From Promethearchaeota archaeon (GTDB lineage: Archaea > Asgardarchaeota > Lokiarchaeia > Sigyniarchaeales > SOKP01), in contig JAHPZA010000004.1 in NCBI GenBank assembly GCA_019058445.1, forward strand, positions 386,184 to 450,183: a stretch of DNA of 64,000 nucleotides. Reading direction: 5' to 3'. This document shows, piece by piece, positions 1,048 through 5,620 of the stretch (position 1 is its first letter; each line of letters begins with the position of its first letter). Under the pieces are notes generated by a model. That model ran no database searches and was not told where the DNA came from. It saw only the letters and a program-made list of their open reading frames with translations. The translations under genes were made by a program, and so were the position numbers.

Positions 1048-3231
1048 ATGTTTAAAATTTCTTCTAAAAAGTCCCTCTATTTACTGTTTCTATTGTTTAT
1101 TATATTCCCATCCGTAATTCTTAATTATTCTCTTTTAGAGGGAACTATTCCAAATTCTTCGATTTATATAAATGTTGTAGCAGATAGTGAACCTGATGTA
1201 GATATGAGGGAATTGCCAGATTTTCCTTACGATGAATTAAATGAAATGTGGTATGATCCAAAAATTGAAATGCTTATTATCACACCAGATGGAAGACAAG
1301 ATTTTGTGAATGCTTGCAAACCATTAATGGAGTGGAAGAATGAGAAAGGAGTAAAAACAATTATTTTAAGCAATTTCTCTAGTTACCCGGGAAGAGATGA
1401 TCAAGAGAGAATTCGTAACATGATCAAATCTTATTATGAAGAAGAAAATATTCAATGGGTTCTTCTAGCAGGAGATGCCCAAAGTGATTTAATCCCTATA
1501 AGAGAAGTGCTAAATGATGATGTGGGATTTTGGGGTCAATCGGAAAAAGTGGGGGGTGATAATTATAAACCGACAGATTATTATTATGCTGATTTAACAG
1601 GTACCTGGGATAATAACGGTAATGGTGTATATGGTGAGTCTACATTTAAAACTGGAGGGCAAGATGAGATCGATTGGATCCCTGAAGTCTATGTCGGTCG
1701 TTTACCTGCTAGTAATGCAATTGAACTTAGTGAAATGATTAATAAAACTCTGAAATATGAAACAGATCCATATATTGAGAATTGGATGGGCAATATGCTA
1801 CTTGCTGGTGGTGTTTCAGATGTACCAGGAGAAGATGATGATGTTGATGGTGAGGATGAAGCCCGTTTAACAACATATATCTGGCAACATTATACTCAAT
1901 ATGAAATGAATTTCACTCATCTTTGTAATTATAATGCCGCCTATTATACACCTCCAGGCACTCATTCAGAATTAAATCAAAATAATTTCACTAATTCATT
2001 TAATTCTGGCTATTCCACTGTATTATTTGCAGGTCACGGTGATATTGGAGCATATTCAGATAAGATCGGTGTAAATACTTTTCGCACAATTTATACCTCT
2101 ACCGATGCTAGTGCAAGCAGCAATATAGACATGCCATCATTGATATATGCTGATGCTTGTAGTACCTCCACTTTCGATTATAATGATAATAGCATTGGAG
2201 AGATTTTAATAAAGAGGTCTAATTCAGGAGCTATTGGATATGTTGGTTCCCTGCGAGTCACATGGTATATACCAAATGATTTGGATCTAGAAATTTTGAA
2301 TAGAGCAAACGCAAAATTATTTTGGGAGGAATTTTTTCAAAATAAAAAATTTCAGCAAGGTAAAGCATTATATGACTCAAAAGTTACATATATGAATAGC
2401 GATTATTTTAAAGACGAGCGTGTTAATGCTGAGGACTATGATGAAGCTGAAAGAAAAAATCTATTAACTTATTGTTTATTAGGCGATCCCGAAGTTGATA
2501 TTTATACAGATAAACCTGCGAATGCCTCAAATCCATTCACTCAAGACATTTACGAGGGTCAATTAATAACTACAATAATAAGAAACATTAATGGTAAAGC
2601 GGTTCCTTATGCGAGAGTAAATTTAAAAACAACTGATAAAAAATATCGTACTGTTTATAGTGATATCAATGGTAGAATAAGCTTTCGCCTTCCGGCTCAA
2701 GCGTATGAAAATTATAATGTAACAATAACGGGACACAATTTGATCCCCACTTATTTCAATTTCACGACTTTACCGGATAATAGCAAACCTAACTTTATTG
2801 ATGAAAAATGTACTCCTAAAGATCCTACAGTATCCGATAATATATGTTTCGAAATTGAAGTCGATGACTCTGAATCCGGAATTGAAAATGTGTATTTGTT
2901 ACAATCTAAAGATAAAGACTTCGAAACGTTTAGCTATTATAAGATGGTACATCGTTTCGAAGATAATAAAGATGAGTTTAAATATACGATAAATAAATTA
3001 GATCCGGGGAAATATTACTTTCTAGTCGTTGCGAGAGATTGGGCTAATAATAAAGAAATATTAGAGGATAAGAGTTTTAAAATCTTAATACAAAATCCTA
3101 TTATGGATTATGTACTCGTTACCTCATTAATTATGGTAATAGCTTTATTATGTATATCAATTTTTACAAGTTATAATGGAAGAAAACAATATCAACGCAA
3201 AATCAATAAGTTAAAATTAACTAATAATTAA
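1048..3231 (+). CDS. Membrane-anchored C25-family (gingipain-like) cysteine peptidase
   Basis: N-terminal signal/TM; VLLAGD, TDYYYADL and VGRLP motifs; catalytic His (FAGHG) and Cys (ADACST); LLGDP; C-terminal Ig-like region and TM anchor. Confidence 0.9.
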   Translation: MFKISSKKSLYLLFLLFIIFPSVILNYSLLEGTIPNSSIYINVVADSEPDVDMRELPDFPYDELNEMWYDPKIEMLIITPDGRQDFVNACKPLMEWKNEKGVKTIILSNFSSYPGRDDQERIRNMIKSYYEEENIQWVLLAGDAQSDLIPIREVLNDDVGFWGQSEKVGGDNYKPTDYYYADLTGTWDNNGNGVYGESTFKTGGQDEIDWIPEVYVGRLPASNAIELSEMINKTLKYETDPYIENWMGNMLLAGGVSDVPGEDDDVDGEDEARLTTYIWQHYTQYEMNFTHLCNYNAAYYTPPGTHSELNQNNFTNSFNSGYSTVLFAGHGDIGAYSDKIGVNTFRTIYTSTDASASSNIDMPSLIYADACSTSTFDYNDNSIGEILIKRSNSGAIGYVGSLRVTWYIPNDLDLEILNRANAKLFWEEFFQNKKFQQGKALYDSKVTYMNSDYFKDERVNAEDYDEAERKNLLTYCLLGDPEVDIYTDKPANASNPFTQDIYEGQLITTIIRNINGKAVPYARVNLKTTDKKYRTVYSDINGRISFRLPAQAYENYNVTITGHNLIPTYFNFTTLPDNSKPNFIDEKCTPKDPTVSDNICFEIEVDDSESGIENVYLLQSKDKDFETFSYYKMVHRFEDNKDEFKYTINKLDPGKYYFLVVARDWANNKEILEDKSFKILIQNPIMDYVLVTSLIMVIALLCISIFTSYNGRKQYQRKINKLKLTNN

Positions 3232-3983: not shown

Positions 3984-5324
3984 GTGAAAGAGAAAAAAGA
4001 TTTGCAATGTAAATATGAGAATTGTACAAATAGGAAGATAGATTACAACGAAAAAAATACTAATTCTAATCTATTGTTTTTGGATATCTTCGAAGATAAG
4101 AAGACTTTAGAAGACTATGTTATTGAACAAATTCAGTATTATTCTAGAACAGGTGAAAGATTATATCAACAAGAAGACATTACGAAAGCACTTAAATTTA
4201 GAATGGCTGATTTCAAGCCTAAAGTAATGAATATAATTAGAAGTATATTTTACACAAAAAAAGAGGATATTATTCAGACTATCTACGATATGACTTTTGG
4301 GAAAGTTAGATTTGCAATTCAGAAATTACGACATTGGGCTTCGCAAAATGGAATGGAAGTATTAACGACATCTCAAGAATGGTTTGATATGGTACTTAAT
4401 AGAGATGAATATCTCAAAACTGGACCTAAAAAGACAACAGAATTTTTAAAAGTTTTAATAAAGTGTGCTCAAGGCCATATTTATGTTAAATATGCAAGGG
4501 AAATTTCAAAGGGATGTAAACATTGTCAACCGTATAGGGTCGGTATTGCATATACTCGTACTTTAGAAGAATACTATGAATATATAAAGGATGTCTGCTC
4601 AGTAAGAGGTTATGAATTAATAACTACGAAAAAAGAGATTATATTAAAATTAAAGAAATCCAGACAGATTAAAGATCGTACTAGTTTTGAAGGTCGTGAT
4701 GAAAATGTTGGGATAGAAGTGAGACATAAAGGATGTAATCATGAATTTAAAATTCGTTTTAAAGCTGTTTTGTATAATCCTGGATGTAAATTCTGTATTT
4801 CACACAAAAAACAAAAAATTGTACAATTAATAATAGAAGAGATGTTAGGAGAAAAATTTGAACCTGAGGTACAAATTCATAGAGTATTTAATAAAGTGAA
4901 GCATAAAGAAGTAAATGATTTCGATTTTAGAGTCAAATTGGATATGTTTAAAAAGGTAGGAATTAGAGATAAAAATGGAAATTTTATTAAATTGGCTATT
5001 GAAAGACATGGCCAACAACATGAGCCCACACTAAAAGGATTCAAAATCTATTTAAAAATAGCTAAACATCCTGATATAAAAAGAGGAAGTAAAATATATA
5101 AAACATTATGGAAGAAGTGGATGAAACAGTTAAACACTGATAAAAAAGAAATAGAGATATTTCAAAAATATAATGAAAATGGTTATTATTTAATTGTAGT
5201 GCATCATAAGATTAAAAATCATCAAGTAGAGCAATTTATTATTAACGAATTGATGAGACAAACAGGCAATAAAATTAGCTATATAGGTATTCAATGGCAA
5301 ACCTTATTTAATAAGATAAAGTAA
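3984..5324 (+). CDS. Zinc-ribbon repeat protein with C-terminal PD-(D/E)XK-like nuclease domain (homing/restriction endonuclease-like)
   Basis: Two C/H zinc-ribbon units (CAQGH...GCKHC; GCNHEF...GCKFC), then LDMF...LAIERHGQQH, resembling LDxY..LAxEYxGxQHY nuclease domains. Very basic. Start uncertain. Confidence 0.6.
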   Translation: MKEKKDLQCKYENCTNRKIDYNEKNTNSNLLFLDIFEDKKTLEDYVIEQIQYYSRTGERLYQQEDITKALKFRMADFKPKVMNIIRSIFYTKKEDIIQTIYDMTFGKVRFAIQKLRHWASQNGMEVLTTSQEWFDMVLNRDEYLKTGPKKTTEFLKVLIKCAQGHIYVKYAREISKGCKHCQPYRVGIAYTRTLEEYYEYIKDVCSVRGYELITTKKEIILKLKKSRQIKDRTSFEGRDENVGIEVRHKGCNHEFKIRFKAVLYNPGCKFCISHKKQKIVQLIIEEMLGEKFEPEVQIHRVFNKVKHKEVNDFDFRVKLDMFKKVGIRDKNGNFIKLAIERHGQQHEPTLKGFKIYLKIAKHPDIKRGSKIYKTLWKKWMKQLNTDKKEIEIFQKYNENGYYLIVVHHKIKNHQVEQFIINELMRQTGNKISYIGIQWQTLFNKIK

Positions 5325-5357
5325 AAAATTTTTAAAAATAGTCATATAACTTAACGT

Positions 5358-5538
5358 TTCCGGGTTCCCGAACCATCCATAAATCAGATGATTTTTCGGA
5401 TGGGACCGGGTACTATCCTCGATAGCCATGACCGTAAGCAAACTTATGCTTGCGTTGCAATACACAACGCAATTTACAGTTTGATAGTTCCCACAGATTG
5501 CAACTGCAGTACTATTATCAACGCGTATCGAGTTTAAC
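5358..5538 (-). rRNA. rrf: 5S rRNA, circularly permuted and intron-containing: 3' half 5538-5474, linker 5473-5438, 5' half 5437-5395, intron 5394-5365, micro-exon 5364-5358
   Basis: The minus strand carries all 5S helices in swapped order: helix I UUACGGU/ACUGUAA; helix II GC-UAUCGAG/CUCGAUA-C-GC; helix III ACCCGG/CCGG-AA-GU; loop C UCCCAUCCGAAC after splicing; loop E UAGUA/GAA; helices UUGAUA/UAUCAA and CUGCAG/CUGUGG. Confidence 0.85.
5365..5394 (-). other. Predicted 30-nt BHB-type intron in 5S rRNA loop C
   Basis: UCCG-AAA-AAUCAUCU(GAUUUAU)GGAUGGUU-CGGG-AAC: 4-bp central helix, two 3-nt bulges, 8-bp intron stem. Removal restores the conserved CCGAAC. Confidence 0.7.
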
Positions 5539-5600
5539 CTTCGGCGTTATGCGAAATGCTTTGTTATATGATTATATTATAAAAAAGAAAAATTATGAAG

Positions 5601-5620
5601 AATAATAAATTTTATCATTT
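5601..5620 (-). promoter_or_regulatory. Possible TATA/BRE promoter of the 5S precursor
   Basis: Minus strand reads GATAAAATTTATTATT about 30 nt upstream of the outer stem. Weak evidence in an AT-rich genome. Confidence 0.3.

What the first reader, a model, noticed from the sequence alone, without database searches (positions are those of the whole stretch)
5342..5571. Circularly permuted 5S rRNA gene whose ends form a BHB-like splice motif
Seen: on the minus strand the 5S 3' half (5538-5474, GUUAAACUCGAUACGCG...UAGUA...GGGAAC...ACUGUAA) comes first, then a 36-nt linker, then the 5' half (starting UUACGGUCAUGGC at 5437). The two halves are complementary in helices I and II. The precursor ends pair with each other: a 9-bp outer stem, then UAACG/CGUUA, bulge AAA, central helix CCGA/CCGG (one A-C mismatch), bulge AGG. 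Established: the archaeal splicing endonuclease cuts after the second nucleotide of each bulge and RtcB ligates. Permuted tRNA genes (Thermofilum pendens, Cyanidioschyzon) and the permuted SRP RNA of Thermoproteus mature through such terminal BHB circularisation. Inference: applying this rule joins ...CCCGGAA to GUUAAAC..., which matches the conserved 5S CCCGGAAGUUAA junction. Predicted 115-nt product: UUACGGUCAUGGCUAUCGAGGAUAGUACCCGGUCCCAUCCGAA|CCCGGAA|GUUAAACUCGAUACGCGUUGAUAAUAGUACUGCAGUUGCAAUCUGUGGGAACUAUCAAACUGUAA. I know permuted 5S-like RNAs only from some mitochondria, not from archaea. Standard rRNA finders would likely miss this gene.
Basis: partly seen in the sequence, partly recalled or inferred. 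Interest (0 to 1): 0.96.

Follow-up and report, generated by a model that had tools for sequence, protein, structure and literature searches.

The report
Permuted, intron-bearing Asgard 5S rRNA gene
This Asgard (Promethearchaeota) archaeon encodes its only detectable 5S ribosomal RNA back-to-front and interrupted by two 30-base mini-introns, so a normal 5S can arise only if the tRNA-splicing enzymes cut and rejoin the transcript three times, most likely into a 121-base ring.

Summary
On the minus strand, 5571-5342 holds the back part of a 5S rRNA, then the front part, between arms that form a bulge-helix-bulge (BHB) splice motif. Cutting by the standard rule joins CCCGGAA to GUUAAAC, the universal 5S sequence.

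- **Score:** the rearranged sequence matches a profile of colinear 5S genes from the sister family end to end (40.5 bits). The genomic order matches only half (17.2 bits).
- **Conservation:** 113 of 126 sampled genomes of the family have one such gene. In 68 distinct genes the 4-bp helix is fully paired in 65 and the flanking helix takes 29 sequence forms. A second breakpoint, CCCGGUC|CCAUCC, rebuilds the same RNA.
- **RNA:** metatranscriptome contigs from relatives carry the joint and close on themselves every 120 nt. DNA contigs carry the trailer instead.

Two refinements. The unexplained 30 nt in loop C is a BHB intron. The "36-nt linker" is a 6-nt hairpin cap plus another 30-nt BHB intron. 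The predicted product is therefore a 121-nt ring, not a 115-nt linear RNA.

Caveats: there is no RNA from this organism, and its assembly lacks 16S and 23S.

This scan has noted permuted Asgard 5S genes on other DNA before (at least 44 genomes). I found no paper describing them.

The parts
5588..5600 (-). TATA-like promoter element CUUCAUAAUUUUU, about 25 nt upstream of the outer stem (inferred)
   Evidence: Read from the sequence. Relatives carry a similar CTTATAWAATGG box at the same distance. Not tested.
5563..5571 (-). Outer processing stem, 5' arm UCAUAUAAC
   Evidence: Pairs with 5350-5342. Relatives have 7-14 bp stems of different sequence at this place.
5551..5559 (-). Small leader hairpin GC-AUUUC-GC between the outer stem and helix h
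   Evidence: Read from the sequence. A longer hairpin such as GUAGC-N5-GCUAC sits at this place in most relatives. Its role is unknown.
5545..5549 (-). BHB outer helix h, 5' arm UAACG
   Evidence: Pairs with CGUUA at 5356-5352. Across 68 genes h takes 29 different paired sequences.
5541..5544 (-). BHB central helix H, leader strand CCGA
   Evidence: Pairs with CCGG at 5363-5360, 3 of 4 pairs. In relatives the forms are CCGG/CCGG, CUGG/CCAG and CUGG/UCAG, and 65 of 68 genes are fully paired.
5538..5540 (-). Bulge B1 AGG; predicted cut between 5539 and 5538
   Evidence: Canonical rule: cut after the second bulge nucleotide. The retained RNA then starts at GUUAAAC.
5474..5538 (-). Exon a, 65 nt: 3' strand of helix III (outer part), 3' strand of helix II, helices V and IV, 3' strand of helix I
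   Evidence: Aligns to positions about 51-115 of colinear 5S genes. Helices are supported by compensatory changes.
5444..5473 (-). Mini-intron 1, 30 nt, in the helix I cap. Motif: h CAAA/UUUG, H CUGU/GCAU (3 of 4 pairs), bulges AAA and AAG, h' UUGCGUUG/CAACGCAA
   Evidence: This is the strongest strict BHB in the region. Removal gives ACUGUAA|GUUUGCUUACGG, the cap found uninterrupted in G022. The same register in G004/6/9 gives the AUUCGU cap of G014. A third variant, L149, is also 30 nt. Absent from the closest relative G007.
5395..5443 (-). Exon b, 49 nt: cap GUUUGC, 5' strand of helix I, helix II, 5' strand of helix III, loop C up to CCGAA
   Evidence: Aligns to positions 1-43 of colinear 5S genes. 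RNA contigs of relatives lie on it and stop exactly at 5395 before continuing with CCCGGAAGUUAAAC.
5365..5394 (-). Mini-intron 2, 30 nt, in loop C. Motif: H UCCG/CGGG, bulges AAA and AAC, h' AAUCAUCUG/UGGAUGGUU
   Evidence: Absent from most same-genus genes, which read CCGAACCCGG at this place. There are 14 distinct introns at this site, all 30 nt. H is fully paired in 13 and h' co-varies. Keeping it lowers the profile score from 40.5 to 26.7 bits.
5358..5364 (-). Exon c, 7 nt CCCGGAA. Its CCGG (5363-5360) is both the 3' strand of helix III and strand H(b) of the terminal BHB
5357..5359 (-). Bulge B2 AAA; predicted cut between 5358 and 5357
   Evidence: Canonical rule. The retained RNA ends at CCCGGAA.
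5352..5356 (-). BHB outer helix h, 3' arm CGUUA
5342..5350 (-). Outer processing stem, 3' arm GUUAUAUGA
5323..5338 (-). Two U-runs (5338-5334 and 5328-5323) right after the stem, a terminator-like signal (inferred)
   Evidence: Read from the sequence. T-rich tracts follow the stem in relatives too.

Best explanation
Window 5571-5342 (minus strand) is the functional, and probably only, 5S rRNA gene of this Promethearchaeota (Asgard) genome.

It is transcribed as one precursor of about 230 nt. In that precursor the back two-thirds of 5S (exon a) precede the front third (exons b and c).

Three bulge-helix-bulge motifs are cut by the splicing endonuclease, and the ends are joined by RtcB. The genome encodes one EndA (202 aa, single-unit type by length) and one RtcB.
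1. A 30-nt intron in the hairpin cap that closes helix I is removed.
2. A 30-nt intron in loop C is removed.
3. The leader and trailer are cut off, and the new 3' end (...CCCGGAA) is joined to the new 5' end (GUUAAAC...).

The result is a 121-nt RNA with the normal 5S fold. In it helix I is closed by a UUUG loop instead of having free ends. It most likely stays a covalently closed ring and serves as the ribosome's 5S.

Shown: the gene layout, its conservation and co-variation, the exact restoration of 5S sequence by the BHB rule, the presence of both enzymes, and the joint in RNA of relatives. Inferred: that EndA and RtcB do the cutting and joining here, that both inserts are spliced, and that the ring rather than a re-opened linear form is the mature molecule (my odds for the ring are about 0.6).
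For: - **Anatomy:**
- **No canonical hit:** RF00001 finds nothing on the window, the locus or the whole genome. This is the only 5S-like locus by blastn and nhmmer.
- **Profile score:** against a profile of 8 colinear 5S genes of sister family f2, the rearranged sequence scores 40.5 bits over positions 4-113. With the intron kept it scores 26.7 bits. In genomic order only the back half matches, at 17.2 bits.
- **Alignment and fold:** the rearranged family sequences align end to end with colinear 5S genes, and RNAalifold returns the 5S Y-shape. Circular MFE folds give helices I-V.
- **Selection on the fold:** RNAalifold on the genomic order finds helices I, II, IV and V, with compensatory changes in 15 of 23 pairs.
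- **BHB across relatives:** all 19 first-round loci have it. Across 68 distinct genes H is fully paired in 65 and h is at least 3 bp in 65, with 29 sequence forms.
- **Second breakpoint:** in type B genes the same rule gives CCCGGUC|CCAUCC, which rebuilds the same ring.
- **Ring size:** predicted rings are 119-122 nt in 17 of 21 genes.
- **Distribution:** covariance model R1 finds one full-length permuted copy in 113 of 126 family genomes. The sister family has colinear genes of 54-68 bits.
- **Complete relative:** G062 is 100% complete and has its 23S assembled, yet has only the permuted locus.
- **RNA:** contigs of two metatranscriptome studies read ...CCGAA-CCCGGAAGUUAAAC... and also hold the UUCG cap. 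One repeats itself with period 120. The contig lengths of 146-151 nt would fit rings of 116-121 nt plus a 30-nt overlap (k assumed to be 31). DNA contigs of run X2 read the trailer instead. The joint string is in none of the genomic loci I hold, while its downstream part is the 5' exon start of 7 of them.
- **Enzymes:** EndA and RtcB are encoded.
- **Introns:**
Against: - No RNA of this organism was available. The RNA contigs are from relatives at 85-95% identity, and contigs cannot show ends, strand or abundance.
- The assembly lacks 16S and 23S. A colinear 5S beside an unassembled rRNA operon therefore cannot be excluded from this genome alone.
- The central helix has an A-C mismatch here.
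- The terminal BHB and the loop C BHB are relaxed forms, each lacking one flanking helix. A single 202-aa EndA suggests the homotetramer type, which in Methanocaldococcus is strict about its substrate (my own knowledge, not tested).
- The cap intron helix H has one mismatch in both variants, and two other registers exist.
- A closed cycle in a k-mer assembly needs both adjacencies to be present in the RNA pool, not necessarily in one molecule.
Confidence: 0.82

Rival explanations
1. The ring is only an intermediate. After the BHB joining, the cap region is cut out and a linear 5S of about 115 nt with ordinary helix I ends enters the ribosome. This is how permuted tRNAs and archaeal 16S rRNA mature.
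For: Analogy with permuted tRNA genes (PMC3978253) and with circular pre-16S/23S intermediates (PMC12918454). Contigs cannot tell a ring from precursor plus linear product.
Against: - In 17 of 21 genes the 'linker' is just a 4-nt UUCG-type loop on three fully co-varying closing pairs, such as AGA/UCU, GAG/CUC, AAA/UUU and UAA/UUA. That is a structural cap, not a spacer.
- No second conserved processing motif is present there.
- Both breakpoint types keep the cap closed.
- The precedent closest in kind, Thermoproteus SRP RNA, stays circular and is functional (PMC4731332).
Confidence: 0.2
2. One or both 30-nt inserts (cap 5473-5444, loop C 5394-5365) are not spliced. They stay in the mature RNA as expansion hairpins, giving a ring of 151 or 181 nt.
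For: Both form stable hairpins that would point away from the 5S core. No RNA data cover them. Both BHBs deviate from the strict form.
Against: - All such inserts are exactly 30 nt, at three or more sites.
- The BHB rule removes them to the nucleotide. It restores the family consensus CCGAA|CCCGG and the invariant 10-nt spacing CUGU-N10-ACGG.
- Their presence is patchy even between closest relatives.
- Loop C is a conserved protein-binding loop, and keeping the insert costs 14 bits.
Confidence: 0.12
3. The permuted RNA is never ligated. It works with its ends held together by the leader-trailer helices, like the permuted mitochondrial 5S of brown algae.
For: Permuted 5S molecules that stay permuted exist (PMC4267664). 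This organism's own RNA was not seen.
Against: - RNA contigs of relatives hold the covalent joint and lack leader and trailer.
- Leader and trailer keep only their pairing, not their sequence.
- The breakpoint lies inside helix III and loop C, and the canonical cut restores the universal sequence exactly in two different breakpoint types.
Confidence: 0.04
4. The locus is a decaying remnant of a tandem 5S duplication or an assembly artefact. The working colinear 5S lies in the unassembled rRNA region.
For: The assembly lacks 16S and 23S. Tandem 5S arrays exist in the sister family. G007 has a truncated second fragment.
Against: - An independent contig from another study spans the locus.
- 113 of 126 family genomes have exactly one full-length permuted copy at 81-115 bits, and none has a colinear gene above the Rfam cut-off. 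This includes a 100%-complete genome that has its 23S.
- There is strong compensatory evolution.
- The truncated fragment is itself permuted.
Confidence: 0.03

Closest known systems
Permuted SRP RNA gene of Thermoproteus tenax (Plagens et al. 2015, eLife; PMC4731332)
   Same: A universal, structured non-coding RNA whose canonical gene seemed missing. [quoted passage not shown]
   Different: This is a different RNA (5S rRNA, a ribosome component). It is found across a whole family and beyond rather than in a few species. Here there are two extra mini-introns in the same gene and two alternative breakpoints. Function and circularity are not shown experimentally.
Circularly permuted tRNA genes (Cyanidioschyzon merolae, Thermofilum pendens; Soma 2014, PMC3978253)
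   Same: The 3' half is encoded upstream of the 5' half, with a BHB at the precursor ends and cut-and-join through a circle. Some of those genes are both permuted and intron-bearing (abstract of PMC3728597).
   Different: In tRNAs the circle is an intermediate that RNase P and tRNase Z open at the linker. Here the linker is a tight co-varying tetraloop with no sign of an opening signal.
BHB processing stems of archaeal pre-16S/23S rRNA and circular 23S within ribosomes (PMC12918454; PMC7758197)
   Same: rRNA is excised at a BHB and circularised by the splicing machinery. A circular or permuted large-subunit rRNA can be the ribosomal form.
   Different: Those genes are colinear. The same paper states that circularisation applies to 16S and 23S 'but not 5S rRNAs'.
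Permuted mitochondrial 5S rRNA of brown algae (Valach et al. 2014, PMC4267664)
   Same: A 5S with helix I closed by a hairpin and its termini elsewhere. Standard models miss it.
   Different: There the RNA stays permuted and linear, with ends at the junction of the alpha and gamma domains and no BHB or ligation. Here the break is in helix III or loop C and is re-sealed.
Archaeal BHB introns in tRNA and 16S/23S rRNA genes
   Same: The two 30-nt inserts have a 4-bp helix flanked by 3-nt bulges, exact exon restoration and patchy distribution.
   Different: They are very short and of uniform length (30 nt). They lie in a 5S gene, for which I found no reported intron in the library searched.

Membership tests
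5S rRNA (Rfam RF00001) | Reaches the family's gathering score (38 bits) with the covariance model | tested here: not met
   There is no hit on the window, on the locus at E up to 10, or on the whole genome. This is expected for a permuted, interrupted gene. The tools do not let Infernal run on the rearranged sequence.
5S rRNA (Rfam RF00001) | Colinear full-length sequence similarity to bona fide 5S genes once the parts are put in order | tested here: met
   An nhmmer profile of 8 colinear 5S genes of the sister family gives 40.5 bits, E 3.7e-14, over profile positions 4-113. The end-to-end alignment shows conserved ACGGUCAU, CCCAUCCGAAC, AAGUUAA, AGUA and GGGAA blocks.
5S rRNA (Rfam RF00001) | Three-way junction with helices I-V, maintained by compensatory changes | tested here: met
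   See the RNAalifold consensus of permuted plus colinear sequences and the circular MFE folds. 15 of 23 pairs show changes on both sides.
5S rRNA (Rfam RF00001) | Present in the large ribosomal subunit | not testable with these tools
   This needs ribosome purification or a cryo-EM map from a member of the family.
Permuted RNA genes repaired by BHB splicing (tRNA, SRP RNA) | 3' part encoded upstream of the 5' part on one strand in one transcription unit | tested here: met
   A promoter-like box and U-runs flank the unit (inferred).
Permuted RNA genes repaired by BHB splicing (tRNA, SRP RNA) | Precursor termini form two 3-nt bulges separated by a 4-bp helix | tested here: met
   CCGA/CCGG, with one A-C mismatch, between bulges AGG and AAA. 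65 of 68 related genes are fully paired, with the compensatory forms CCGG/CCGG, CUGG/CCAG and CUGG/UCAG.
Permuted RNA genes repaired by BHB splicing (tRNA, SRP RNA) | Both flanking helices (h and h') of the strict hBHBh' motif | tested here: inconclusive
   Helix h is present at 5 bp here and at 3 bp or more in 65 of 68 genes. Helix h' is not formed by the adjoining strand. Bulge B1 abuts the outer part of helix III across a 17-nt loop, so this is a relaxed motif.
Permuted RNA genes repaired by BHB splicing (tRNA, SRP RNA) | Canonical cut positions followed by ligation yield the functional sequence | tested here: met
   The result is CCCGGAA|GUUAAAC here. In type B genes it is CCCGGUC|CCAUCC. 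Both equal the colinear consensus.
Permuted RNA genes repaired by BHB splicing (tRNA, SRP RNA) | Joined form present in RNA but not in DNA | tested here: inconclusive
   It is seen for relatives in two metatranscriptome runs, while DNA contigs show the trailer. No RNA of this organism was available.
Permuted RNA genes repaired by BHB splicing (tRNA, SRP RNA) | Host encodes the splicing endonuclease and the RtcB ligase | tested here: met
   EndA scores 68 bits to PF01974 and 29 bits to PF02778 in one 202-aa ORF, and no second copy was found. RtcB scores 574 bits.
Permuted mitochondrial 5S (mtPerm-5S type) | Mature RNA remains permuted, with free ends at the junction of the alpha and gamma domains | tested here: not met
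   The break lies in helix III or loop C, and RNA of relatives shows it sealed.

The most novel reading that the evidence does not exclude
The ribosomes of a whole Promethearchaeota family, and of other Asgard lineages, contain a covalently closed circular 5S rRNA of about 120 nt. In this organism it is assembled by three EndA/RtcB events on one transcript: two 30-nt mini-introns and one back-splice.

The uniform 30-nt introns at three or more sites, together with two different permutation breakpoints inside one genus, further suggest that ring or intron RNAs are repeatedly copied back into the gene. That would make 5S a hot spot of BHB-intron mobility.
Probability: 0.5. Interest if true: 0.92.

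Novelty: new variant of a known kind. Interest (0 to 1): 0.86.

Why it matters
5S rRNA is universal, and its gene is regarded as easy to find in archaeal genomes. Here the colinear gene does not exist in an entire family of the closest archaeal relatives of eukaryotes. This explains "missing" 5S annotations and lower rRNA-based quality scores for these MAGs.

It would extend the moonlighting of the tRNA-splicing machinery from tRNA, SRP RNA and 16S/23S to the third rRNA. It also makes essential ribosome assembly depend on EndA and RtcB.

If the ring is the mature form, it is a ribosomal RNA without ends. This is directly testable in ribosome structures of cultured Asgard relatives or in metatranscriptomes.

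The 30-nt mini-introns and the shifting breakpoints give a compact natural system for studying how BHB introns and gene permutations arise.

In practice, a permuted 5S covariance model such as R1 (81-115 bits on family members) could be added to annotation pipelines.

Tried and rejected
- **Rfam and ARAGORN on the window:** no rRNA or tRNA was found. The only cmscan hit at E up to 10 on the locus is a chance match to a Streptococcus sRNA at 14.6 bits.
- **Infernal on the rearranged sequence:** the tools do not allow this. I replaced it with an nhmmer profile.
- **Naive single-sequence BHB scan:** it found 19 strict-ish and 89 relaxed motifs in 270 nt, so it does not discriminate. I therefore rest nothing on BHB-likeness alone.
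- **Other registers for the cap intron:** removing 28 nt or 31 nt was rejected. These registers do not restore the family's CUGU-N10-ACGG spacing, and the 31-nt register fails in G004.
- **A first BHB register for the loop C intron:** H CCAU/AUGG or CCGA/UCGG was rejected because the products carry 2-6 extra nucleotides. UCCG/CGGG gives the consensus.
- **Neighbouring ORFs:** these are a Peptidase_C25 protein and five ORFs without Pfam hits, so there is no functional link. The two small ORFs overlapping the locus have no family.
- **RNA of this organism:** none is held. RNA runs X19 and X20 cover only parts conserved with relatives. There was no cover over the introns, leader or trailer in those runs.
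- **Own-genome absence of a colinear 5S:** this is weakened because 16S and 23S are unassembled.
- **Single-contig relatives G108 and G109:** they gave no usable 23S hit.
- **Literature:** five searches found no report of a permuted, circular or intron-bearing archaeal 5S.
Full report
**What is in the sequence.**
All coordinates below are on the minus strand of the window. The order is:
- a TATA-like box (5600-5588);
- a 9-bp outer stem arm UCAUAUAAC (5571-5563);
- a small leader hairpin (5559-5551);
- UAACG (5549-5545), CCGA (5544-5541) and AGG (5540-5538);
- 65 nt that are the back part of a 5S rRNA (5538-5474, GUUAAAC...ACUGUAA);
- 36 nt (5473-5438);
- the front part of 5S (5437-5395, UUACGGUCAUGG...CCCAUCCGAA);
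- 30 extra nt (5394-5365);
- CCCGGAA (5364-5358), then A, CGUUA (5356-5352) and the other stem arm GUUAUAUGA (5350-5342);
- two U-runs.

**Is it a 5S gene?**
Rfam finds nothing on the window, on the locus at E up to 10, or in the whole 4.6-Mb, 10-contig genome. I built a profile from eight colinear 5S genes of the sister family f2, which score 54-68 bits with RF00001. Against that profile:
- the re-ordered 115 nt match over positions 4-113 (40.5 bits, E 3.7e-14);
- the same sequence with the 30-nt insert kept scores 26.7 bits;
- the genomic order matches only with its back half (17.2 bits), and this is the only hit in the genome.

Re-ordered sequences from 21 family members align end to end with colinear 5S genes, and RNAalifold returns the 5S Y-shape. 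Circular MFE folds of the predicted products give helices I-V. RNAalifold on the unrearranged genomic alignment still finds helices I, II, IV and V, with changes on both sides in 15 of 23 pairs. The fold is under selection.

**Conservation of the permutation and of the splice motif.**
Blast and a covariance model of the genomic-order core (R1) find one full-length copy in 113 of 126 sampled genomes of the family (81-115 bits). Weaker full-length hits occur in three other families of the class. The sister family has only cross-hits on its colinear genes. Contig titles place the family in Promethearchaeota, the Lokiarchaeia-type Asgard archaea.

In 68 distinct genes the 4-bp central helix is fully paired in 65. 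It occurs as CCGG/CCGG, CUGG/CCAG, CUGG/CCGG and CUGG/UCAG, with CCGA/CCGG here. The adjoining helix h is at least 3 bp in 65 genes and takes 29 different sequence forms. The bulges are always 3 nt. Outer stems of 7-14 bp differ in sequence between genera.

Cutting after the second nucleotide of each bulge always gives CC(C/A)GAA|GUUAAAC, which is the colinear consensus.

In genera g2, g5 and part of g11 the gene is broken at another place. There the leader reads ...CUGG-AA|C-CAUCCGAAC and the trailer reads ...ACCCGGUC|A-CGCU. The same rule gives CCCGGUC|CCAUCC, which is again the consensus and the same ring. Two breakpoints that converge on one product are hard to explain unless the joined RNA is what selection sees.

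**Caveat on chance.**
A naive BHB scan of this A+T-rich 270 nt finds 19 to 89 motifs. The comparative data and the exact restoration are.

**The two 30-nt inserts are mini-introns.**

*Loop C (5394-5365).* Most same-genus genes read CCGAACCCGG at this place. Fourteen distinct inserts sit at exactly this site and all are 30 nt. They share H = UCCG/CGGG (fully paired in 13), bulges AAN and AAC, and an inner helix that co-varies, for example AAUCAUCUG/UGGAUGGUU, AACCA/UGGUU, GGC/GUC and AUCCA/UGGAU. The rule gives CCGAA|CCCGG.

*Helix I cap (5473-5444).* In 17 of 21 genes the "linker" is only a UUCG-type tetraloop on three fully co-varying pairs. Here and in G004/6/9 an extra 30 nt sit in it. They form the strongest strict BHB of the region: h CAAA/UUUG, H CUGU/GCAU with 3 of 4 pairs, bulges AAA and AAG, and h' of 8 bp.

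Removal gives ACUGUAA|GUUUGCUUACGG, which is the uninterrupted cap of G022. The same register in G004 gives the AUUCGU cap of G014. A metagenome variant (L149) has a different hairpin but again 30 nt and the same cut sites.

The closest relative G007 has the loop C intron but not the cap intron, and G004 has the reverse. That patchiness is typical of archaeal introns. The predicted end product here is 65 + 49 + 7 = 121 nt.

**RNA evidence (relatives only).**
No run holds RNA of this organism. Contigs of two metatranscriptome studies (X19, X20; 85-95% identical) lie on exon b and stop exactly at 5395. They then continue with CCCGGAAGUUAAAC and the relative's own exon a. At their other end they run through the UUCG cap.

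The contigs are 146-151 nt long, and one repeats itself with a period of 120 nt. Those lengths would fit rings of 116-121 nt plus a 30-nt overlap, on the assumption that the assembler's k-mer is 31; I did not verify k. This is what a closed ring of about 120 nt gives in a k-mer assembly.

DNA contigs of run X2 continue with the trailer instead. The joint string occurs in none of the genomic loci I hold, while its downstream part is the 5' exon start in seven of them. The leader and the 3' exon share only six bases, so on the same k = 31 assumption a shared k-mer cannot have created the joint.

Contigs cannot show whether cap and joint sit in one molecule, nor where molecules end.

**DNA layout and enzymes.**
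A 356-nt contig from a study other than the probable source spans 5300-5614 at about 98% identity, so this is not a misassembly. The genome encodes one EndA (202 aa with N and C domains, no second copy) and one RtcB.

**Weak points.**
- This MAG lacks 16S and 23S, so absence of a colinear 5S rests on relatives. G062 is 100% complete and has a full 23S, yet has only the permuted locus. No family genome reaches the RF00001 cut-off.
- The terminal and loop C motifs are relaxed BHBs.
- The single-unit EndA type is strict in Methanocaldococcus. This is my own knowledge, and I did not test it.

**Comparison with what is known.**
The mechanism is that of the permuted Thermoproteus SRP RNA, which is circular and functional (PMC4731332), and of permuted tRNA genes (PMC3978253). 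It differs from the brown-algal mitochondrial 5S, which stays permuted and unligated (PMC4267664). A 2026 paper on circular 23S rRNA states that circularisation concerns 16S and 23S "but not 5S" (PMC12918454). Five literature searches found no permuted, circular or intron-bearing archaeal 5S.

Earlier notes of this scan record the same phenomenon in at least 44 other genomes, including a loop C intron and environmental RNA rings. I re-derived these points here. I did not find the cap intron or the within-family breakpoint switch among those notes.

**Verdict.**
This is a real and almost certainly functional permuted 5S gene, repaired by BHB cut-and-join (0.82). Both inserts are probably introns (about 0.85). 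My odds that the ring is the mature form are about 0.6.

Noticed in passing
L077-L091 (e.g. G109:C1:1735550-1735681): Many g11 and g2 genes carry a further 30-nt BHB mini-intron in loop D or helix IV. One example has H UUGC/GCAG with bulges GAU and AAU, restoring CUGUUGCGA|UCAG. All mini-introns seen in these 5S genes are about 30 nt, at three or more sites.
   Followed up: partly
L013 (G022), L037 (G013), L079, L081, L083-L085, L087 (g11): There is a second permutation breakpoint (CCCGGUC|CCAUCC) within the same family, and even the same GTDB genus, as the CCCGGAA|GUUAAAC type. How the breakpoint moves is unexplained. Tandem duplication or copying back of the ring are possibilities.
   Followed up: partly
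L002:2371-2426 (G007:C109:5275-5382): This is a second, truncated copy of the permuted gene about 800 nt downstream of the intact one. It holds the end of the 3' part, a GUUCGC cap and the start of the 5' part, then diverges (R1 40 bits). It is probably a pseudogene.
   Followed up: no
L057:1500-1650 (G129): The loop C insert of 31 nt repeats the exon string GGAUAAUACCCGGUCCC. It lies at a slightly different site from the common loop C intron.
   Followed up: no
L126 (DATKTW010000142.1): A contig labelled Candidatus Nanopelagicaceae bacterium carries a typical Promethearchaeota permuted 5S gene and has 32% G+C. It is probably a mis-binned archaeal contig.
   Followed up: partly
window 5559-5551 and the same place in relatives: A leader hairpin, often GUAGC-N5-GCUAC, is conserved in position between the outer stem and the BHB helix h in most family members. 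Its role is unknown.
   Followed up: no
L092-L095 (G026 f3, G029 and G027 f4, G043 f6): Other families of the class give full-length hits to the permuted model (38-58 bits). Their flanks look different, for example G+C-rich leaders and possibly other breakpoints. I did not dissect them.
   Followed up: no
G000 whole genome: The assembly is 92.6% complete in 10 contigs but has no 16S or 23S rRNA gene by Rfam models.
   Followed up: partly
window 1048-3231 (+): A 727-aa protein with a Peptidase_C25 (gingipain-type) domain lies upstream. The other ORFs around the 5S locus have no Pfam match.
   Followed up: no
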